A stretch of DNA of 64,000 bases from Spizellomyces punctatus DAOM BR117 (lineage: Eukaryota): assembly GCA_000182565.2 (NCBI GenBank), contig KQ257451.1. One strand, given 5' to 3'. A program made the translations under genes and the position numbers. Below the pieces are notes generated by a model. That model did not search any database. It was not told where the DNA came from and saw nothing but the letters and a program-made list of their open reading frames with translations. This document shows, piece by piece, positions 18,135 through 59,424 of the stretch (its first letter is position 1; each line of letters starts with the position of its first letter).

Positions 18135-21100
18135 CTAGACAAGACCAAACCCTTTTGCATTCTCAATAGCCGTCACCAACCGATCTCTTAGTTTATCCTT
18201 ATCACTGTATTCGGGAAGAAGGAGTCTTCCAAAACAAGTGAGTGCAGTGGGAAGTCTAAGACAAAAAGGTGTGAGAAACGCTGTGGTTGCAGTCAGTTGC
18301 GCTCGCGCCTGCCACAAACCTGTCAGTATCAGGTCCGTTCCGCTGGATGACAAACGTCAATCCACCAAGACCCTTTAAAGGAACCCTATCACTCGCCGTC
18401 ACGAAATTTAATAGTTTCTTCTTTTGCTCCAGTTCCATATCAGAGTGTACAATCTCCCAGAACCATTGAATGACTTCATGATCGGGTCCGTATCCATCGT
18501 CGTACTGGGCACCTTGCTCCAGTTCCGTAAAATCGAGATCAGTCGTGGATGTGCCACAAATCATGAGCTCCAATTCCGACGCACGGCACATCTAGGGACA
18601 AGGGATTCAGTGGACCATCTTGGGTAAAATTATCAGAGTAGTCCATTTTCAACCTACCTTTAGTGCATTTCCACCGCACACTTTGTGAAAGCCTCTTCGG
18701 AAAGCAGAAAACTGACGCCGCACACTCTCCACCACGTAATGATGAATGTACAAATCCACGTATTCCTTCCGATTATCGTTGGTCACCAAAATATCTTCCC
18801 CTCCTTCTACAAGCGGAAAATGCTTGACCTGTCCATATATATCATAAGAGATTTCAAAGGTCCGCAAGAAGACATCTCCAACGTCGCCGTCAGACCACTC
18901 CAAAAGCTGCTGAAGGCCCCTTCCTAGAGTCTAATAGTGGCCAAAATTAAAGAGAGTCCAACGCGAAAATTACCTGTTCACTATGCCACATACCGGCCAC
19001 GCATCCTTGACGTCCTCCAGTGTTGGCGCCTCATCCAAAAGCTTCTTGTACAAGACTTTGGGGAAGTTGACATCCAAAATCACCCCATTATAAAGTGCCA
19101 GTCCAACAATCGTCCCCACAAGCTCAAACTCCTTCTCGGATTCCAAGGACGCCCCGTTTATCCAGCAGTAACGAGTTTCTTGGTCATATAGGAACATGCC
19201 GTATGCGGGGTCGAGGAGCATGCTCACAATAACTTGAAAGAACTCTTTCTGAACGCCGCCCTGGTCCATTCCTTCTTCCCCGCCCCCAATAAACCGCACC
19301 TTGAGTGGCTTTTTTAGGTCGGCCCCCTTCTTGCGTATCTACCGGTTTCCAATTTTAATAACAATGCAACAAAGGATGGCAGCCTAGAGACTGACCTGGT
19401 CTAAGGCATCTTGTACTAGATGCTGTCTCCTTATTTCCAATACAAGGAACGGATTTGTTGCCTGCTTTAAATTGTGCTCCAGTTGCACAACAGATGGCGA
19501 ATCTTGCAAAAATCTCTGCGCATGGACCACCAGCGCTTGATGGACAAAGGCGTCCTCGAATTCCAACGACATTTGAACCATTGCATCGATATGCATGATC
19601 CGGGTCTTTGCAGTAGGATCAAAAAGAAATGGATAATTGAAATACGAAAACTGCGTGACCTGCGACGGATTTTCAAGTGTCCGCTTCCATGTTTTATACT
19701 CGTCCTTGAAGTTAAGCTTACGGTTGAGGGATTCGCTGTAAAACGCAGAAACAGGGACAATGTGCCCATTCTTTGCATTCTCATTCGCAAGGTATAGCAT
19801 GCTGAGAGTTCGCACAGCTGCTACTAGTGCTTCATCCGGCTGTGGGGAAGGATGGAAATGATCTTCTAGATATCGATGAAACACTTTAAGGACCTTTTCG
19901 AATCCTTCTCGGTCATATCTTGAATACCAATTTATCAAAACGGATCGACTCTTTGCTCGCAAAGCTCCGAGGATGAGGCAAAGCTTCTTGAGCAAAGAAT
20001 CATGGTAAGATCTATCTGAAAGCAGAGGAATTTCGAGCAAAATCAAGATTTGCCTCAACCTCTGCGGTTCCCCAGCCTGCAGACGATGCAGGTTGAGTTG
20101 TAATCTCGCCAGCAGGATCTCGAGCGCGTTTACAAAGGGGATAAGAAATGTCTTGCGGGGTTGCACATCGAGAATTAGCTCGTAGGCCTCTCGCACAGCA
20201 GATATATCAAGACCCGAAGGATGCCTTGTCTCAGTTTCCGCCAGAAAACTTCGATTTAGAGCATCACTATCAGAAAAGACTGTTCGGAGCGTATTGACAA
20301 GAAATCGTGGATCTCCCAGGAGTCTATCATCTCCACCCGAGCCATTCTCATGCAATTTCGGCTCAACCGCGGTAGATCGATAGGTAGCGACGGCGGATTT
20401 AAGCAATGGCAGAGTCAGATACTGTAGACTTAGTTGCGGCTCCTCGTCCCCACTTGACGCATCTTGTTCATGGCCATGAGCGGTGACCGGAATCGCCGGA
20501 CTAAAGACAAGATCATGAGCCCTAGTGACATATCTGAGTGGGGAGCCAGTGCGTGGCTTTATTGGAGTTGATGTGTCGGTTTCTGGCAGAGACCCGCTAG
20601 AGTTTGAGCGAGATATCGATGCTACTGGGGTGCATTGGCCCGATGTGGACGAACAGTGTGGTTCTGAGAACCGGTCTAAACCATAAACCGTCATTATATA
20701 AGAGTGCGTAACCTTACTCCGCATCGATCACGCATACCTGAGATGGAACCCAAGCTTGGAAGGTCTGTTGAAGATCTACTACGTATGCTTGACTTATCCA
20801 ATGTTGCGTGGTCGGTGGTAAGTTTGCTCAACAGTCTCAGACCCAAAACGCTGCCATCGTCAAAGGTGAATAAGCCTCGTCGAAGGACATTCTGTTCCTT
20901 GATAGCATCGGTTGGTGAAGAATCAAAAGCTGGTTGCGATATGTTGTCATCGTGATGTACATCATCTAGTTCACTTGTAGAATGCGATCGTTTAAAGGTT
21001 GATGAGCCTAATTCCACGCCGGAGGGATTAAATAAAGATGCGAAGGGGGAAGATGCAAGTAATGACGATAAGAAAGGTCGCGATGGTAGGGTACTTGACG

Positions 21101-35500: not shown

Positions 35501-38500
35501 TTGGGAAGCGGAAACAGAGAGTCCCGTGCTAGTTATCGAGCCAGAAGGTGGGTCTCTTCAACCCGGAGAGACAGTCTATTTGGAGGTGACATTCGCGCCG
35601 CAAGACTTCGACCCATTGCACCATAACATCAATTTCTATACGGACGCGGGGACGAAGACTTTAATGTGCTACGGTATTGTCGGTGTTCCATACCTCAAAA
35701 TTCCGGAAGAAGACATGTTCATGGATTTCGGCATCGTGGCAATTAACAAACCACATAATCATTCGGTGGTCTTTACCAACACCGGCAAGCGACACATTGA
35801 GTTCGAAATCACCTTGATCGATGTAACGCATGACGGGATTGAAATGGCACCTGAGGATTTTGATGTTTTTTTCATCAATCCCACTCACGACATCATTGAA
35901 CCCGGCGGTACAGTAACTATCACTATGCAGACGATTCCGCGAGAGTATAACGCCATTTATGCCGGTGAATGGATGGTGCGTACCCGCGATGGAGAACAAT
36001 ATCGTGGTCGATTAACAGCAACTGGTGGTAAAGCCATTATCAAACTGGCGCCTCCTACTCTCGCGGCTGAAGAAGCGCTTTCTAAGAAGCCCAAGACCGC
36101 CGAAATGTCGATGAATGCTCCCTCCTCACGAGGAACTGAAGCTAGTGCAGGCTATCTCCCAAGTACTGTTGAGACAGCTCGCCAAACGTTTCAAAATCAC
36201 CTGGACAATTTACAGGAGGTTTTGGCTGGTCTCCGAGCGGCGGAGCTGGACACCAAGAGTGAATTAGAGTCCGTGCTGCCAAAGCCACCTACAGCAGATC
36301 GTCCCGTGTCAACACCACGCTCAGCTAGCGCGAGACGCCGTCAATCGGTGGGTACTCCTGACATAAAGGCTGAGGATGCTAATCTCGAGGAATCTCGGCA
36401 ACGTGGCCTACGCGTTATGGATGGGTCAGACGTACGGGACCGCGCACGAAGAGGAACCGCAGGCCGTGTTGTTAATATTGATAATGAGGATTTATCAGAT
36501 CGGCCAAGAACCGGCCGCCGGTCACGCACCGCTAGAGGAGCAATTGATGCAGATTCCTCTGCCGCGGTGCGGTACATGGACGAATTATCCCAATTGGAGG
36601 ATGAGCTCGATATGGCAATTGGCCTGCGAGATCCCCTCATGTCCCCTATCGCCACAGGAGCCCCAGGTACGCCGAGTAAAAGGACGCCAAGTGGTCTTGG
36701 AAGGTATCAGCCTGGTGCACCGCGTCATCGGAGACCGCAAGCCGCGCGTGAAGCAGTGATTAGGAGCATCCTCTCTGCTAGTGGCGAACGTTCTTCAGAG
36801 CGAGATTCTGAGGAATCACTTCGCACAGGTTCACGAGCATCAGAGAGACTATCCAACCGTAAAAGTGTTGCTAGCTCGGCGGAGATGGAACGACTACAAA
36901 GGCCGATTGAGGATCTTATTCAAACGGCACAGGAGATGATTTCGGATGCGAACAACGCTGTCGATCCAAATGTCCAGCGCACGCTTCTGTCTGCTGCAAA
37001 CGATCGTATTCTTGACAGTACAAGGGGAGTCATCAAGGCCGTGAAGGAACAGTTAGCTAACGCCTGGATTGAAAACCGTGATTTCCTAACAACTGCGTTA
37101 AGACGCCTTCAACAGTCAACCCATGTCATGGAAGCGCTGGGCGAAGCACCCCTCGAAAAGGAGGCTGGCGAGAATGACTTCAACTTAGGATTATTGAAGG
37201 CAGGAGAGCGCAGCGCACCTATTCTACTTTTCAATCTTCCGAACCTCGGAAATCTCGCTTTCGATTTCCACATTAAGCGAAAAGAAGCTGACGCTATGTT
37301 CCCACCAGATTTTGTAATGGACAATGCTGGGGACGTCTTTGTTCTGGATCCGCCCTCTGGTGCCATTGCGCCCCGAGAATCGGTCAATATATCCGCTACG
37401 TTTACGGCCACGACTCCAGGCACATATCAGCAAGCCTACGAGCTAATCTCAGGAGGAGAGGTCGTTCTCACCTTCACAGCAACAGCTCGGGTTGGGTCTC
37501 CCAATCTCGTAATCAGTCCTGCAACTATAGATTTTGGTTTGGTAGGGCGCCAGAAGAGCTCCGTGCGCACATTTCATATTGAGAACACTGGGACATACAA
37601 GGACATATTTCGCATTGAGGCAGTTGTGGCTGCTGCTAACTTGGAAGCAGAGGACTCGCTGCCCACAGCTCTTCCGTTTGTTCTCAGTACATATCGAGGC
37701 GATGTTGAGCCAGGTGCTAGCGAGGCAGTACAAGTCACCTTCTCGGCTCCCCAAGAGGGAACTTATGTCCAAAGGTTTCGTGTCGCCTGGAGTAAGGAAC
37801 CTCTCTTTGTGGAATGTAAAGGCGTCGGTGGTGGATACAGAATTAAGCCGGTTTTCATGTCTGAGAAAGATCAACAATTTGGCGGATTGGATTGGGGCAC
37901 CTGTGTCGTTGGTGTTTCGTATGAGAAGCTGTTCAAGCTGACAAATATTGGGAACGTCGAGGGCACCGTAGATCTATTTCACAGCAATGACTGCTTCCGC
38001 TTTGATGTTGTTCGTGATGCAAAGGGTGCAGTTCATATCCCGCCAGGTCAGGAGGTAGATGTGAAGATGATTTTTTGGCCGTCACGCAGCGAAACAATCA
38101 AGGAAGGAGTACAAGTTCGCCTACCGGAAAACAACATTACCGTCATCCCAGTGCGTGCGATAACAGGGATAACAGAATGGAAAGTGGACGGCGATGCAAA
38201 GTTACTCAACATGCCCGTCTTAGAGATACAGAATCGCACGCTAAAGGTGACAAACACTGGAAACCTGGAGATACCGTTAGAAGTACGCATCGAACCACCC
38301 GAACTTGCGGCAATCGTCGGAGTCAAAGTGCTCAATTGGAAAGAAGGAGAAGCTCTGAAGCCCAACCAAACGGCGAGTGTAGATTTGACTGTTGCTCCTC
38401 AGAAAGCTGCATTGATTGAGGGTACCTTGATTATCACAACCAACCTCGGTAAAGGACCCGTACAAAACAAGCAGCCTTTCAAATTACGGGCATATGAAGA

Positions 38501-43325: not shown

Positions 43326-44414
43326 GACCTCGTAAGCAGGTAGCTTTTTGTGTTGGCAAAGGGAAGATGGTAGGAATGAAGGCTGACATGATCGATGTCC
43401 CGTGATATCATATGATTTGAGATGTCATGGCAACAAAAATATCAATTTTTGTTCACCTGGCGTATAAAAACCCGCCGAGTTCCTCGTTTTTCTTCCCATG
43501 CTTCTACTGCGACCTCCGCATCTCCTTCCTCCACTTTCTCGTCCGTCAAGCACGTATGGAGGAGCGACATGAATTGGTCGTATATCTTTCACTCTTTAGC
43601 CCGCAGAAGGTAAGTTACCCCCAGCCCTTTATCGGATCCTTCCAATTCTGTGAAGGTTGTCCGTCACTCTAAACTGGGAAGACGCTTGTCCGTTCATTTC
43701 ACTTTGTGGCCTTCTTGCACGCCTAACGGTGTACTCACTCGAAGTGGCCATCATTCGCGAACGGCACATCGGGTCGTTGTTCAGAGGTCAATATGTTACG
43801 TTTGCTTCCGCGTCTAATAGGTTCAACACAATTCGTTTTCTCCCTAATGTGTTGCGTACCCAGACTTCTGGTTGATCGTTTCGCATCTGGTGTGGAAACC
43901 GAATTGATGAACCTATTATACCCGTAAGCTTCCAAGTAAGTTGTCCTCTGCGCGTGTTGCCCTATCGAAGCTCGCCAGGAGGCCTTCCCGTGTCCTTTCG
44001 AGTCAAACTGTGGCAAAAAGTAAAACATGATCTCTTTCTATGGTCGTTGGTGAACTCAATCAGAAAATGTCGTTCAACAACATCACCCAAAAGAGACACA
44101 ATTGGTGAAAGCCATCTCCTGTCTACTTGACAGTTTCACAATGTGGAATGTCATCGTGTTAATGTCAATTAGACGGAGAAGGACCTTCACACATAGCGAG
44201 GATTTGTCCCGCTCGGTATGTTACTCATCCAACAAGACTATTGATCCCACGTTGGTTTCTTGAGTGTCAAAACGAGCGAAGAATAGACTTTTACCAGAGC
44301 GGGCAGCGGATCTTTCCGTCCATCCAGCCATTTCTGTTGGGTTGGTTGAAACATTTGCCCTGCACGGACATACAATGCAACATTTACCTGCCTATGAATG
44401 TCTATGGCCCTAAA

Positions 44415-52251: not shown

Positions 52252-52885
52252 TAGACACATTGTGCTAGAATGCTCTTTAATGTATTTCGATTAAGTTACT
52301 TAATCTGACGATGATAAAATCTAATATAATACTGCTTCCTCCCTCTCTGTCATCGACGGAAGCCGAGGATATATATGTATTAATGGTGCCCTGTGCGGTT
52401 TCCGCTCCAATGGTTCACGCCATTCGTACCCACACCCGTTCCTGTATCACAGAAACCTTGCTGGGGATAGCTCACGACACGACAATTTGGTGTTTGGCAT
52501 TACATTCTTTAGCGTACCCATGTGGGATTAGTGGTCGGGTCGACTGTATACTGGTGTCTGCCTCCCTTCAGGACCCAGCCACCGGAACCAGTTACAAGAT
52601 TTCCTGACGACGACGGGAGCAACCACAACCTTACATGGTATCACTGAAAAGAGGTAGCCAGGTCAAAAGCGTGACATTGCGAGTGTTTGCCATAGGGCCC
52701 TGTGCGTCAAAGCCAAATTGGGCGACAGGAAGTTTTGATGGGCAACATGGGCCAATTCATCAAAACAGCCTATTAGTGACTTGACTGACAATATCTGCGC
52801 TTGGGATCCACATCCATGCACATTTAGGATTAGGTGGTGATGATCCGTGGACATCCCAGTTGTTAAGGCCACACCGTCCTGGAAA

Positions 52886-52966
52886 AATCACTGCGGGGGG
52901 AATTTAAGGCTGGTGCTTTATAAAGTATTCCAAGTAACAATGATTCTAGTCGCAAGGCCAATTGTT
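52886..52966 (+). repeat. Copy 1 of an ~80 bp imperfect direct repeat (copy 2 at 58160-58235)
   Basis: AATCACTGCGGG...TTAAGGCTGGTGCtTTATAAAGTATTCC-AAGTAACAATgATTCTAGTcGCAAGGCCAATTGTT aligns with 58160-58235. Confidence 0.85.
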
Positions 52967-55667: not shown

Positions 55668-56232
55668 CTCTGAATCTAGTTTCGCTTATACGTATCTCAT
55701 AGTCTCGTAGTTTGAACTTTTATGATAGTTCGGTCTCAACGACGTTGGTCAAGATCGTCAATATCAACGAGAAATGTACGGCTGAGAATGAAAAGCAGGT
55801 CCATCATCACAAGGCCGGGAAAATGATGAATATCCCTATCTTTGAGGAAAACGAGCAATACGCACTGCGTGCTGACGCAGAATTTTCAGTGAAAGTGAAA
55901 GCGAACGAAGTGGAGGATTATGCTTGCTGAAAGCCCAGGCAAACCTCTAAAACGCTCGAAGCATGCAAACTTGGAATTTTTCAAATAAATAAATTACCGT
56001 AGAACAACAACTCTTGAAAAAATCAACAATATATTTTTGAAAACATGTATATACACAGCTTCAATGTGATCCCCCAATTCCGACGTCCGCGACCAATAAA
56101 TACTGTAAAGTAGATTCGCTAAGCGCAAATGCAAACAAGACATCAACCATACTTACCATCACATGGCCAAACACTTGTAAGACGCGCGGGGAACCTTGAA
56201 CAGAGAAGGAAACGCATTATTCTTTAGAGAAG

Positions 56233-56677
56233 CAAGGACATGGTCGGCAGACCGCAGGTGTCGGGTTCCGTTCGGATGGTACGCCCACCTTCAGTACCAT
56301 TACACAGCGAGGACGGCTGCCCGAAACAGCCAGGGATGGTGCCCCGCAGGACAACACTCGATCGTCGCTACACACCTTCCAGAGCAGCTCAGGCTATACT
56401 GATACGTTGATCACTCGCTTCCACAAGAAACGCTGGCACCCCGGGGTCCGGCAAACCGACCTCCAGTTGGTCCCTTGGTCCATACAGAGTATGGTCCGCG
56501 GCAACCAACCTTCAGAACAGTTCGCTTTCTCCCGAGACCAGACGTCTCCGCTTCCACGAGGCCACAAACGCACCAGTACCTCTTCACCGCCACTCAGGAA
56601 GGTAGCCATGGTCGGAAGAATTGGGTCCCCGTGTCCGCCCTTCCGCCGCCCAGCACGGCCCGCCTTGCATGCCCTTG
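56233..56677 (-). ncRNA. Intronic structured RNA, copy C (full length)
   Basis: Terminal stem CAAGGGCAUG/CAUGUCCUUG; GUGAAGA...CUGA C/D-like pair; stem GUACUGGUGCGUU/AACGUAUCAGUAU; shares a 78-nt block with copy A. Confidence 0.65.
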
Positions 56678-56889
56678 GAGAAAAGCAAATGCATTGACTC
56701 ACAGGAGCATCCACAAAGCACTAATCCAATCCCTCATCCCGACGTCCACGACCAAATGCATGCTGTAAGGGAAGGGGCGCTCAGTGCCTAGCTCGACATG
56801 AATACGAGACAGCAATCAGACTTACTACCAAATGGCCAAACAGTTGCTGACGTCAAGGGGAGGTAACCTGTAATAAAGAAGGAAAACGA

Positions 56890-57138
56890 AGCTCAGGCCC
56901 CACCAAATACGCTGCAACCTTGACCGTTTCCACGAGAACCCCATTTCGGATCGGCCTCCCTGGCGACACCGAAGTGCGGCTGGGCAGGCGGACCATCCAC
57001 GGGGACCCGCTTCCACGAGATCACAACGCACCAGCAGAGTACCCTTAACCACTACTCAGGAAGGCAGCCATAGTCCGTGCGAGGCCGCCAATCGGGGCTT
57101 CCACTTTCCACTGACGTCCGCCTGACACACTCTTGAGC
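56890..57138 (-). ncRNA. Intronic structured RNA, copy B (lacks the 3' domain)
   Basis: UGGCUGCCUUCCUGAG motif; stem UGCGUUGUGAUC/GGUUGCAGCGUA; two CGU-GGAA-RCG hairpins; ends at CUGAGC just before the 3' splice site. Confidence 0.55.
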
Positions 57139-57579
57139 AAAGGCAAATGCATTCACTCACCAGAGCATGGCAAAGCTGCGACATCCTTGGAAAGACTTAC
57201 GAGCAAGAGCAAGGGAGGCACTGCCGTGGAGGCAAGGTAGAGGGAGGTTTGTGTAATGAGATGAGCTGATGATGTCGGTGACGGGCGTGCTCGTATTGCA
57301 AGGAACTCACCAATTAGCAACAATAATCGTAGAATATGAATATATTGAGAAGCAAGCCTAGACAGCGAATTCCCATTCCCTCCGATTTTCAGCAACCAGC
57401 ATCCAATTGTTGACCCACAGCAGTGCTAGAACAACTATGATCGATTTAGTATCCATGTTCAGAATTGTAAGGCAAGAACAACATACAGTACGAAGCATCG
57501 CAACCACGTGCATGGAGCTGGGAGAAAAAAGGAGACATATCTGTAATAAAGAAGGAAACCGGATTATTCGGTAGAGAAG

Positions 57580-57956
57580 CAAGCACATGGTCGGCGAAAC
57601 CCCCCAGCTCGGGCTTCGCACCTGCTCTTAACCGCTTATCGACAGATATGACACAGCGAGGAAGGCTGCCCGAAACAGCCAGGGATGGTGCCCCGCAGGA
57701 CAACACCCGATCGTCGCTACACACCTTCAAGAACGGCTCAGATGGTGCCGATAACGCTGCAACCATGTCCGCTTCCAGCAGGTTGACTTCCCCAATGCCA
57801 TTATGTCACTAACCGTCCCGCCAGCTGGTTCATGATACTGGGAAAGCCGTCCCCCCTTTCACGAAGGATCACAACGCACCAACACTTCTTCATCGTCCCT
57901 CAGGAAGGTAGCCAGTCTGAATGAACCAGGCATCTTGCGTGCATGCCGAAAGCTTG
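57580..57956 (-). ncRNA. Intronic structured RNA, copy A (full length)
   Basis: UGGCUACCUUCCUGAG motif; AUGAAGA...CUGA pair; stem GUGUUGGUGCGUUGUGAUC/GGUUGCAGCGUUAUCGGCAC; 3' domain 76/78 identical to copy C. Confidence 0.65.
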
Positions 57957-58159
57957 ATGTTCGCATGAGTGAAGGAGTAAAGTGTCTGGGTACTGTCGTG
58001 TAAATATTTGGGATGCACAATACATACATGAGTTGCAACATCTGTGAAATTATTTGCCAAAGGCAATTGCTAGGAACGTTTCATGCACATGCAACCAGCC
58101 AGCATGGTCTGACTTCGTATGGACATTTAGTTTGTCGCGAGTTGCTTGGGTCGAACTTG

Positions 58160-58235
58160 AATCACTGCGGGTTAAGGCTGGTGCGTTATAAAGTATTCCG
58201 AAGTAACAATCATTCTAGTTGCAAGGCCAATTGTT
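58160..58235 (+). repeat. Copy 2 of the ~80 bp direct repeat, in the divergent gap between the ncRNA host and the methyltransferase
   Basis: Aligns with 52886-52966; contains TATAAAG. Confidence 0.85.
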
Positions 58236-58353
58236 TTAAGTAACGTTTGGCAAAATCAGTAGTTCTCTGGTTGCTCGCAAGCAACATGACTAATCAGATC
58301 CCAGCAACGATCATTTCTTGTAGCCAAAAAATGGGCCTTGTCAAAGAATCTTC

Positions 58354-59424
58354 ATGTCGGCGTTGGCCAAGGCCCGCCGAGCGCTTGCACCGCTACTTTC
58401 TCATCTGTCAACATGGATGACTCCATCGGAGCTCGACTCACTCTTGCACGCATACATCCAGCCGCGCCTTACAACGTTCCGCATCAACACGCTGAAAGTG
58501 CCGACGTGTCTGCTAAACATTGACAGTATTCTGCAGCCGATAGAGTCGGCTCTGCATGCGGTTAAAAAACGACCTCAACCTCGCCTGAATAGGTGTGCTT
58601 GGTACCGGAATGCATATATTGTCTCGAATCCGGCAGTTCAAGTCCGCCATCTCGCGCATGTGAATCCGCACAAAGAGGGCCAGATACATTTCCAGTCCTT
58701 GAGTTCTATGCTCACTCCGCTTTGCCTTGGCGCTCAACCTGGTTGGCGAGTGCTGGATATGTGTGCGGCTCCCGGGGGTAAAACGGCCATGATAGCTGAA
58801 TCTGTTGGTGCAAATGGGCGAATAGTCGCCAACGAGTTGGATCCTGCCAGAGCGAAGCGCTTACAAAAGAATATAGACACATTGCTCCCGCCAGAGTTGC
58901 GAGAATGTGTTCATGTGCGGGTTGGCGATGGTCGTAAACTAACTCTTGCAAGTGCTGCGGACACTGCTAATAGTTCTTCTTGCGATCCTTTTGACGCCAT
59001 CATGGTGGACGCCCCCTGCAGCGGAGAAGGAATAATTCAACTCTCGGAGCCATCTAGTTATCGACATTGGTCCTTTGAATGGGTGAAGAAGCATGCCCGA
59101 CTGCAGCAGCAGCTTCTCAGCAATGCATACTCGCTACTGAAACCTGGCGGCGTATTGATTTATTCTACTTGCACCTTGTCACCCGAGGAGAATGAGGCTG
59201 TTATGGAATGGTTTTTGGATGCACACCAAGATATGGAGGTCACCGATCTTGCGCTACCGTTTCTTTCGGCGTGGTCTGGTCGTGATGCCAATTTTAGACC
59301 AGGCTTAACATCATACAGGGGGACATCATTTCGTAAGGTGTTCCAACGTGCCTTACGAGTATTTCCCAGCGTAGAATATGAAGGGTTTTTCGTATGTCGA
59401 ATGCGACGTTGTCCTCAATATTAA
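58354..59424 (+). CDS. NOL1/NOP2/Sun (RsmF-like) RNA cytosine-C5 methyltransferase, intronless
   Basis: Motifs FRINTLK, FQSLSSM, VLDMCAAPGGKT, FDAIMVDAPCSGEG (motif IV Cys), LKPGGVLIYSTCTLSPEENE (motif VI Cys) and EGFFVCRMRR. Confidence 0.95.
   Translation: MSALAKARRALAPLLSHLSTWMTPSELDSLLHAYIQPRLTTFRINTLKVPTCLLNIDSILQPIESALHAVKKRPQPRLNRCAWYRNAYIVSNPAVQVRHLAHVNPHKEGQIHFQSLSSMLTPLCLGAQPGWRVLDMCAAPGGKTAMIAESVGANGRIVANELDPARAKRLQKNIDTLLPPELRECVHVRVGDGRKLTLASAADTANSSSCDPFDAIMVDAPCSGEGIIQLSEPSSYRHWSFEWVKKHARLQQQLLSNAYSLLKPGGVLIYSTCTLSPEENEAVMEWFLDAHQDMEVTDLALPFLSAWSGRDANFRPGLTSYRGTSFRKVFQRALRVFPSVEYEGFFVCRMRRCPQY

What the first reader, a model, noticed from the sequence alone, without database searches (positions are those of the whole stretch)
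56103..58041. Three paralogous large structured RNAs, each nested in a spliceosomal intron of an apparently non-coding host gene
Seen in sequence: three unusually long introns on the minus strand (487, 293 and 508 nt, against about 50-70 nt elsewhere) have canonical donors (GTATGT, GTGAGT, GTGAGT) and near-identical acceptors (TTTCCTTCTTTATTACAG twice, TTTCCTTCTCTGTTCAAG once). Each contains the motif UGGCU(A/G)CCUUCCUGAG, then a long stem whose sequence differs between copies while pairing is kept through compensatory and G-U changes, then CUGAG. Copies B and C have GGAA-capped mini-hairpins at both sides of the inner junction. Copies A and C add an RUGAAGA/CUGA box C/D-like (kink-turn) pair closed by an outer stem, a 78-nt 3' domain (76/78 identical), and a terminal stem that brings the two intron ends together. 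The G-U pairs work only on the minus strand, which agrees with the splice orientation. The exons encode only a ~34-aa ORF. Inference: this is an intron-encoded ncRNA family in a snoRNA-host-type gene. I cannot match it to U3, U14, SRP, RNase P/MRP or a TPP riboswitch, so it may be undescribed.
Basis: partly seen in the sequence, partly recalled or inferred. Interest (0 to 1): 0.9.

Follow-up and report, generated by a model that had tools for sequence, protein, structure and literature searches.

The report
Three long structured introns, chytrid non-coding gene
A chytrid fungus gene that seems to code for no protein carries three related, unusually long and GC-rich introns that fold into strand-specific rod-shaped RNAs with a snoRNA-like kink-turn signature and match no catalogued RNA family, but whether they act as stable RNAs is still unproven.

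Summary
The sequence features are real. Three paralogous segments lie on the minus strand: A 57541-58027, B 56868-57160, C 56195-56702. All have canonical donors, near-identical acceptors and an invariant 16-nt motif found nowhere else in the window. Eight strong donor motifs lie on the minus strand of the locus and none on the plus strand. No spliced ORF exceeds 75 aa.

Folding is minus-strand specific and beats shuffles for A and C, but not for B, which looks decayed. A and C carry a box C/D-like kink-turn signature. Rfam gives no match.

Weak points:
- No orthologues could be fetched, so covariation rests on three paralogues.
- No splice junctions were seen. The only stranded RNA-seq sample shows as much antisense as sense signal.
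- After correction for base composition the structure is not exceptional within the window.

Best reading (about 0.35): an undescribed, lineage-restricted family of intron-hosted snoRNA-like kink-turn RNAs in a non-coding host gene.

Rivals: cis-acting structures in long introns, neutrally maintained hairpin DNA, or small-RNA precursors.

A lead: 10 nt of the motif are antisense to LSU rRNA helix 70, and the divergently transcribed neighbour is an orphan NSUN-family m5C RNA methyltransferase.

The parts
58160..58235 (-). Promoter-like conserved element with CTTTATAA, upstream of putative exon 1. A second copy lies at 52886-52966.
   Evidence: 82-nt match at 88% identity between the two places. 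The promoter function is inferred.
58028..58165 (-). Putative exon 1 of the non-coding host transcript. The 5' end is approximate.
   Evidence: Minus-sense RNA-seq depth is 4.0 at 58000-58083 and falls to 0.14 at 57916-57999, next to the GTATGT donor at 58027.
57541..58027 (-). Long intron A (487 nt), holding copy A.
   Evidence: GTATGT donor and TTTCCTTCTTTATTACAG acceptor. Whole-intron z is -1.79, with 6/100 shuffles as good.
57731..57914 (-). Copy A core. It holds the 16-nt motif (57899-57914), box C-like GAUGAAGA (57887-57894), the rod, and box D-like CUGA (57738-57741) with the 3' stem strand.
   Evidence: MFE -76.6, z -3.66; the plus strand gives z +1.2. A 208-nt contig from an RNA library covers 57731-57938 with 7 differences.
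57651..57728 (-). 3' domain of copy A (78 nt), predicted as a three-way junction.
   Evidence: 76/78 identical to 56302-56379. The fold is predicted and shows no covariation.
56868..57160 (-). Long intron B (293 nt), holding copy B. The motif is at 57055-57070, GGUUAAGG at 57043-57050 stands in place of box C, and CUGA is at 56893-56896. There is no 3' domain.
   Evidence: Core z is -1.0 and whole-intron z is -0.2. Read as a decayed copy.
56195..56702 (-). Long intron C (508 nt, AAG acceptor), holding copy C. Its 5' and 3' flanks pair over about 90 nt.
   Evidence: Whole-intron z is -3.10, 0/100. The end-to-end duplex has z -3.5, 0/200.
56382..56608 (-). Copy C core. It holds the motif (56593-56608), the 7-bp terminal stem GAGUGGC (56589-56595) with GCUGCUC (56382-56388), box C-like GGUGAAGA (56581-56588) and box D-like CUGA (56389-56392).
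   Evidence: MFE -110.5, z -5.14, 0/200; the plus strand gives z -1.0. Stem and boxes were read.
56302..56379 (-). 3' domain of copy C (78 nt).
57435..57486 (-). Predicted short intron (52 nt).
   Evidence: GTATGT ... CATAG. Predicted only.
56763..56825 (-). Predicted short intron (63 nt) in the unit after B.
   Evidence: GTAAGT ... TTACAG. Paralogous to 56103-56156.
56103..56156 (-). Predicted short intron (54 nt) in the unit after C.
   Evidence: GTAAGT ... TTACAG.
58354..59424 (+). Divergently oriented neighbour: a 356-aa NOL1/NOP2/Sun (RsmB/F-type) RNA m5C methyltransferase.
   Evidence: Pfam PF01189 at 2e-40. NCBIfam hits all fall below the equivalog cut-offs. The closest named relatives are Spizellomycetales chytrids.

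Best explanation
The locus is a non-coding, multi-intron transcription unit on the minus strand of a Spizellomycetales-type chytrid genome. It lies head-to-head with an NSUN-family m5C RNA methyltransferase gene. Its three long, GC-rich introns are old tandem paralogues of one RNA module.

The module has these parts:
- a conserved 16-nt 5' element;
- a terminal stem with a box C-like RUGAAGA;
- a variable rod with a GGAA/GGAA loop;
- a box D-like CUGA that closes the stem;
- in A and C only, a 78-nt 3' domain.

I infer that after splicing the cores of C and A are protected by a Snu13/L7Ae-type kink-turn protein and accumulate as orphan snoRNA-like RNPs of roughly 190-230 nt, or longer if the 3' domain is kept. 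B is a decayed copy: it has lost the G of the G.A pair and the 3' domain, and it has no excess structure. The most likely activity is base pairing through the conserved 5' element, possibly with LSU rRNA helix 70.

Shown: paralogy, splice signals, strand-specific structure in A and C, and no known family. Inferred: excision as stable RNA, protein binding and the target.
For: - Paralogy is mosaic. The 16-nt motif is invariant but for one R and the 3' domain is 76/78 identical, while the flanks and rod apices are unalignable.
- Structure is strand-specific. Core z is -3.66 for A and -5.14 for C on the minus strand, against +1.2 and -1.0 on the plus strand.
- The three lowest raw MFEs of 2554 windows in the 64 kb are here, on the minus strand. 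The long introns are GC 0.55-0.62, against 0.40-0.50 for the exons and short introns.
- The kink-turn reading holds from the sequence. C has a 7-bp stem, a GGU bulge with U at L3, GA and AG pairs and CUGA. A has GAU, GA and CUGA.
- The two differences listed for an environmental RNA-library contig (57896, 57898) turn A's 5/7 stem into 7/7, if the other strand is unchanged.
- Host-gene features: 8 strong donor motifs on the minus strand and 0 on the plus strand in 2.2 kb, against a background of 0.65 per kb per strand; no ORF above 75 aa.
- There is no Rfam match.
- The k-mers shared by A and C have depth 5 where the flanks have 2-3, so the element is not high-copy in that run.
Against: - No splice joints were reported, and no stable minus-strand RNA was shown. 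About 6% of one run was read and 97 reads were laid. Over the locus, roughly 19 reads' worth are minus-sense and 26 are plus-sense, with the plus-sense peak (depth about 5.5) over 57832-58000, antisense to copy A.
- The strand of the environmental contig is unknown.
- Box C matches 6 of 7 positions, and no C'/D' pair or internal single-stranded guide was found.
- B fails both the kink-turn and the shuffle test.
- Composition explains much of the stability; the best adjusted z is -2.3.
- Covariation among the three paralogues is weak.
- The conserved blocks can also be read as splice signals: a branch, pyrimidine tract and GAG, then CUG|GUGCGU, flanking a purine-rich 19-23-nt micro-exon.
- No orthologue was obtained.
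Confidence: 0.35

Rival explanations
1. The structures act in cis. In an organism whose introns are about 58 nt, rods and end-to-end helices fold these 300-500-nt introns so that donor, branch site and acceptor come close together, or so that cryptic splice sites are masked. The conserved blocks are splice signals, and no trans-acting RNA results.
For: - In C the 5' 93 nt pair with the 3' 99 nt (z -3.5).
- The acceptor and branch regions are conserved (12/16 and 25/30 between A and C; 18/18 between the A and B acceptors).
- In B the CUGAGC block lies 26 nt before the acceptor, like the CTGAG branch candidate of the short intron at 56763-56825.
- CUG|GUGCGU is donor-like in all three copies and lies inside the conserved helix.
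Against: - The end-to-end helix is not significant in A or B.
- The 3' domain is 97% identical while its flanks are at saturation, which is more constraint than a spacer helix needs.
- The box C/D-like geometry would be a coincidence.
Confidence: 0.25
2. The locus is hairpin-prone repeat DNA without RNA function. A tandemly duplicated unit carries an inverted repeat, either transposon- or introner-derived or created and renewed by template-switch mutations. Strand-biased C-to-T change produces G.U pairs on one strand.
For: - The exons and short intron were duplicated together with the long introns (units B and C, 68-69% identity).
- The rod apices differ more than the neighbouring, presumably neutral, short intron, yet each is self-complementary.
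- CUGAG flanks each core like a target-site duplication.
- B has already decayed.
- Template switching can create and maintain hairpins (10.1101/2021.04.15.439925, abstract in a search listing).
- Introner-like elements are long and stably folded (PMC3609843, abstract in a search listing).
Against: - All 3 copies in the 64 kb lie in one locus.
- The depth of shared k-mers fits two copies of the 3' domain.
- A palindrome decaying neutrally should fold equally on both strands, but the plus strand of A is at z +1.2.
- Invariant single-stranded blocks and the 97% identical domain need selection or recent gene conversion.
Confidence: 0.2
3. The rods are long hairpin precursors of small RNAs, or partners in sense-antisense double-stranded RNA, that feed the RNAi pathway.
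For: - The rods are long, imperfect and rich in G.U pairs.
- Both strands are transcribed over copy A.
Against: - No small-RNA data were available.
- No target-like match was found elsewhere in the window.
- The conserved parts are the base of the rod and the flanking motifs, not the rod arms.
Confidence: 0.1

Closest known systems
Intron-encoded box C/D snoRNAs in non-coding multi-intron host genes (UHG/GAS5-type hosts; the fungal snoRNA clusters are recalled, not looked up)
   Same: One RNA per intron of a host without a convincing ORF. A terminal stem, a RUGAxGA box near the 5' end and CUGA near the 3' end. Tandem paralogues.
   Different: The cores are 184-227 nt, with a fully paired rod where the guide regions should be. 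Box C has A where the consensus has U. There is no C'/D' pair and no Rfam C/D hit even at E<=10. A and C have an extra 78-nt domain.
Long non-methylating C/D-type RNAs that act by base pairing (U3, U8, U13/snR4-type; recalled)
   Same: A kink-turn core plus a conserved single-stranded element outside it that could pair with rRNA.
   Different: No sequence or covariance-model similarity. The other boxes of those families are absent. The target is only a 10-nt lead.
snR13/U15 and snR75, the guides for the helix 70/71 methylation cluster of 25S rRNA (PMC4174444, passages)
   Same: The 10 nt UGGCURCCUU are antisense to the stretch just 5' of their targets, which includes C2278.
   Different: The register differs: the D'-rule target would be G2273, not A2280, A2281 or G2288. 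No Rfam match to those families.
Introner-like elements of fungi (PMC3609843, abstract only)
   Same: Longer than regular introns, stably folded, and carrying their own splice signals.
   Different: ILEs occur in hundreds of near-identical copies in unrelated genes. Here there are three diverged tandem copies in one non-coding locus.
Structured 'zipper' stems in long yeast introns (recalled)
   Same: A helix that brings the donor region and the branch/acceptor region together, as in copy C.
   Different: Those are simple stems, without conserved boxes or an added conserved domain.

Membership tests
Box C/D snoRNA | Box C RUGAUGA next to the 5' strand of a terminal stem | tested here: inconclusive
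   A has GAUGAAGA and C has GGUGAAGA, 6 of 7 positions with U at L3. B has GGUUAAGG, which loses the G of the G.A pair.
Box C/D snoRNA | Box D CUGA next to the 3' strand of the terminal stem | tested here: met
   CUGA is present in all three copies and is followed directly by the stem strand.
Box C/D snoRNA | Terminal stem of at least 4-5 bp closing the two boxes | tested here: met
   C pairs 7/7 including G.U. A and B pair 5/7 (read; consensus pairs).
Box C/D snoRNA | Internal C'/D' boxes and single-stranded guide(s) of at least 10 nt ending 1-2 nt before D or D' | tested here: inconclusive
   The interior is a paired rod. The only candidate is the 5' element followed by CUGA, 7 nt and UGAAGA, which lacks an upstream box C.
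Box C/D snoRNA | Match to a curated C/D family model | tested here: not met
   0 Rfam matches at gathering score and at E<=10.
Box C/D snoRNA | Bound by Snu13, Nop56, Nop58 and fibrillarin; nucleolar | not testable with these tools
   Needs RIP/CLIP and localisation.
Introner-like element / transposon-derived intron | Many near-identical copies in unrelated genes | tested here: inconclusive
   All 3 copies in the 64 kb lie in one locus. Shared k-mer depth fits two copies. No genome is held.
Introner-like element / transposon-derived intron | Longer than regular introns, with stable predicted structure | tested here: met
   293-508 nt against a median of 58.5 nt. z is -3.1 for C and -1.8 for A.
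Protein-coding exons | A conserved open frame or a family match | tested here: not met
   The frames of the three copies hit stops at different places. 10 ORFs have no Pfam hit. Spliced ORFs are at most 75 aa under 8 alternative models.
tRNA or tRNA-like (3' domain) | Cloverleaf recognised by ARAGORN | tested here: not met
   0 genes in 55900-58400.

The most novel reading that the evidence does not exclude
The conserved 5' element (UGGCURCCUU, followed by C and CUGA) pairs with LSU rRNA helix 70 at the stretch that carries m5C2278 and abuts Am2280/2281. The RNAs are co-expressed from a shared bidirectional promoter with the neighbouring orphan NSUN-family m5C methyltransferase. Together they would form an RNA-guided or RNA-chaperoned rRNA base-methylation system, as snR4/snR45/U13 do for Kre33/NAT10 acetylation (recalled). 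The evidence does not exclude this, but it rests on a single 10-nt complementarity and on gene adjacency.
Probability: 0.04. Interest if true: 0.9.

Novelty: new variant of a known kind. Interest (0 to 1): 0.5.

Why it matters
Early-diverging fungi have almost no experimentally described non-coding RNAs. If these are stable RNPs, they would form a new lineage-restricted family of large kink-turn RNAs hosted in introns. They would also give a tractable case of how structured RNAs arise, duplicate and decay within one locus: C is intact, A is partly intact and B is decayed. If the helix 70 lead held, it would link an orphan m5C methyltransferase to an RNA cofactor. If instead the structures act only in cis, they show how an organism with 58-nt introns copes with 500-nt introns.

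Tried and rejected
- Rfam: 0 hits over the whole window at gathering score and 0 at E<=10 on the locus and on single copies.
- Whole-genome search: no genome is held for this window.
- Metagenome scan with GGCTNCCTTCCTGAGN{10,32}TGGTGCG: all 13 loci were judged chance. 12 match only the seed. L005 extends to 67% over 124 nt but lies inside a bacterial glutamyl-tRNA synthetase ORF.
- Earlier findings of this scan: nothing by place, by sequence or by words.
- The protein atlas and cluster look-up gave no taxon. The homologue list did.
- Coding readings were rejected. tRNA was rejected.
- Sequencing runs:
  - No joints were reported.
  - X1 and X7 contigs are identical to the window and colinear across the splice sites. 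Their library type is unknown, so they say nothing about splicing.
- The locus at 52.9 kb has the same promoter-like element, a 9-nt match to the motif and UGAGCU at similar spacing, but no excess structure (z +1.08; alignment). It may be a fourth, degenerate relative and is not counted as a copy.
- Print searches found no description of such RNAs: 'chytrid + snoRNA + intron' and 'Spizellomyces punctatus + snoRNA'. The library is partial and supplements are closed. The supplementary tables of PMC5824354, which may list chytrid snoRNAs and targets, were not seen.
Full report
WHAT IS THERE. On the minus strand of 56.1-58.2 kb lie three related segments: A 57541-58027 (487 nt), B 56868-57160 (293 nt) and C 56195-56702 (508 nt). 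They have GTATGT/GTGAGT donors and near-identical pyrimidine-rich acceptors. The 16-nt motif TGGCTRCCTTCCTGAG occurs three times in the 64 kb, once per copy, against 0.09 expected. A sensitive self-comparison finds no other copy in the window. The exons and short intron that follow B and C are also paralogous at 68-69%, so the copies arose by tandem duplication of whole units.

GENE CONTEXT.
- Between 56000 and 58200 there are 8 strong donor motifs (GTRAGT or GTATGT) on the minus strand and none on the plus strand. The window holds 39 on the plus strand and 44 on the minus strand, or 0.65 per kb per strand, so about 1.4 would be expected.
- Candidate short introns elsewhere have a median length of 58.5 nt (n=20), so the three introns are very long for this genome.
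- The predicted spliced RNA is about 600 nt. Its longest ORF is 75 aa, and the duplicated exons are read in different frames. Eight alternative splice models give at most 75 aa. Ten local ORFs have no Pfam hit.
- An 82-nt element with CTTTATAA just upstream (58160-58235) recurs at 52886-52966, before another short unit without any family match.
- The head-to-head neighbour (58354-59424, plus strand) is a 356-aa NOL1/NOP2/Sun RNA m5C methyltransferase. It reaches no equivalog cut-off. Its closest named relatives are Spizellomycetales chytrids at 53-57% identity, followed by bacteria at about 35%.

STRUCTURE.
- On the minus strand the cores fold as rods: A -76.6 kcal/mol (z -3.66, 1/200 shuffles as good), C -110.5 (z -5.14, 0/200), B -75.7 (z -1.01, 30/200).
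- The plus strands give -43.5 (z +1.2), -68.2 (z -1.0) and -49.9 (z +0.1). The G.U-dependent strand asymmetry is therefore real.
- Whole introns give z -3.10 for C, -1.79 for A and -0.20 for B.
- Only in C do the intron ends pair significantly: -74 against -54 kcal/mol, z -3.5.
- In a scan of 2554 windows of 200 nt, the three lowest raw energies are here. After regression on GC and G+U content the best local z is -2.27, outside the top 25. Much of the stability is therefore compositional.
- The composition itself is odd: the long introns are GC 0.55-0.62 and lie among exons and short introns of 0.40-0.50.
- RNAalifold on the three cores finds 49 pairs, 10 with double changes and about 20 with a broken or gapped cell. 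The covariation term is -0.54. With three paralogues this is suggestive at most.

CONSERVATION MOSAIC (A against C).
- The 5' flank is unalignable.
- The motif block is 24/30 and the next block 22/30.
- The rod is 12-19/30.
- The 3' domain is 76/78.
- The next 30 columns are 14/30.
- The last 76 columns are 21/30, 25/30 and 12/16.
Such sharp changes call for selection or patchy gene conversion.

KINK-TURN READING (from the sequence).
- C has a 7-bp stem (GAGUGGC with GCUGCUC), a GGU bulge, G.A and A.G pairs, A-U and G-C, and CUGA directly before the 3' stem strand.
- A has the same layout with GAU and a 5/7 stem.
- B has U in place of the critical G.
- An environmental RNA-library contig (57731-57938, 7 differences, 2 listed) changes exactly two stem positions, so that A's stem would be 7/7 if the other strand is unchanged.
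- Box C is 6/7 of the consensus. No C'/D' pair or internal guide is apparent.

AN rRNA LEAD.
- UGGCURCCUU is the exact antisense of a 10-nt stretch of the conserved 28S sequence quoted as the R2 target oligo (10.1101/2024.11.11.623112, methods passage).
- I matched that oligo to the residues named in PMC4174444 (U2268, U2269, U2274, A2275, C2278, A2280, A2281, G2288; passages). This places the stretch at yeast 2270-2279 in helix 70, which includes m5C2278, the Rcm1 target (PMC3799443, passages).
- The motif's one variable base (A or G) faces U2274 and pairs with it either way.
- The 10 nt are followed by C, CUGA, 7 nt and UGAAGA, a D'-C'-like layout.
- By my own arithmetic, an exact 10-mer match somewhere in about 5.5 kb of rRNA has a chance of about 0.04.
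- That the chytrid rRNA has this sequence is assumed, not checked.
This is a lead, not a finding.

EXPRESSION.
- About 6% of one RNA run was read and 97 reads were laid.
- A poly(A) tail at 56010 on the plus-strand neighbour shows that first mates are sense.
- Minus-sense depth is 4.0 at 58000-58083 and 0.14 in the next bin, which fits the donor at 58027. It is 0.6-1.5 over 57328-57495 and below 1 inside the introns.
- Plus-sense (antisense) depth is 5.4-5.6 over 57832-57999.
- No joints were reported, and the threshold was 3 reads.
- Contigs of two runs of unknown type are colinear with the genome.
- K-mers shared by the A and C 3' domains have depth 5 where the flanks have 2-3, so there is no sign of a high-copy family.
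Neither splicing nor stable intronic RNA is shown, and antisense transcription is a complication.

RELATIVES. No genome is held. The one metagenome scan gave only chance hits. Earlier notes of this scan hold nothing. The tool for fetching contigs of related proteins is closed. Orthologue-based covariation, the decisive computation, could not be run.

ALTERNATIVES.
- The conserved blocks can be read as splice signals: NGAC, a pyrimidine tract and GAG, then CUG|GUGCGU, around a purine-rich micro-exon of 19-23 nt.
- The rods could be cis 'zippers' for long introns.
- The hairpins could be renewed by template switching (10.1101/2021.04.15.439925, abstract).
- Introner-like elements are also long and folded (PMC3609843, abstract), but they are high-copy.
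- The rods could be small-RNA precursors.

VERDICT. The features are real and match no catalogued family. Structure is strand-specific in two of the three copies, and the third has decayed. I rate the readings as follows:
- intron-hosted snoRNA-like kink-turn RNA family: about 0.35;
- cis-acting intron structure: 0.25;
- neutral hairpin repeat: 0.2;
- small-RNA precursor: 0.1;
- other: the rest.
Interest is moderate (0.5) and would rise sharply with orthologue covariation or a Northern band.

Noticed in passing
window 58160-58235 and 52886-52966, minus strand: An 82-nt element (88% identical) with CTTTATAA and an AACAAT...ATTGTT inverted repeat precedes both the host gene and a second short unit that matches no family. 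It may be a shared promoter. Rfam gives only noise-level C/D hits there (15-16 bits).
   Followed up: partly
window 52440-52700, minus strand: Downstream of the second element lie UGGCUACCU, then CUCUUUUCAG, a 9-nt stretch and GUAAGG, and UGAGCU about 187 nt further on. This may be a fourth, degenerate relative of the module. It has no excess structure (z +1.08).
   Followed up: partly
window 57748-58083, plus strand: Plus-sense RNA-seq depth reaches 5.6, antisense to copy A and to exon 1. It could be an antisense transcript or a long 5' leader of the methyltransferase gene.
   Followed up: no
window 55712-56010, plus strand: A small gene with a weak Ppnp-like hit (E 0.09). Reads place its poly(A) site at 56010. 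It is the most highly covered feature in the stretch that was laid.
   Followed up: partly
window 58354-59424, plus strand: A chytrid RsmB/F-type m5C methyltransferase. Outside chytrids its nearest relatives are bacterial (about 35%, Clostridia and others). Its substrate is unknown.
   Followed up: partly
window 44001-44300, 19901-20150, 36451-36650: These windows have the most negative composition-adjusted folding energies in the window (z -3.2 to -3.9). Several show this on both strands, which suggests inverted repeats.
   Followed up: no
L005 338-464: A bacterial glutamyl-tRNA synthetase motif region happens to match the search pattern and 67% of the next 124 nt. It shows how a short RNA motif pattern can pick up coding sequence by chance.
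   Followed up: yes
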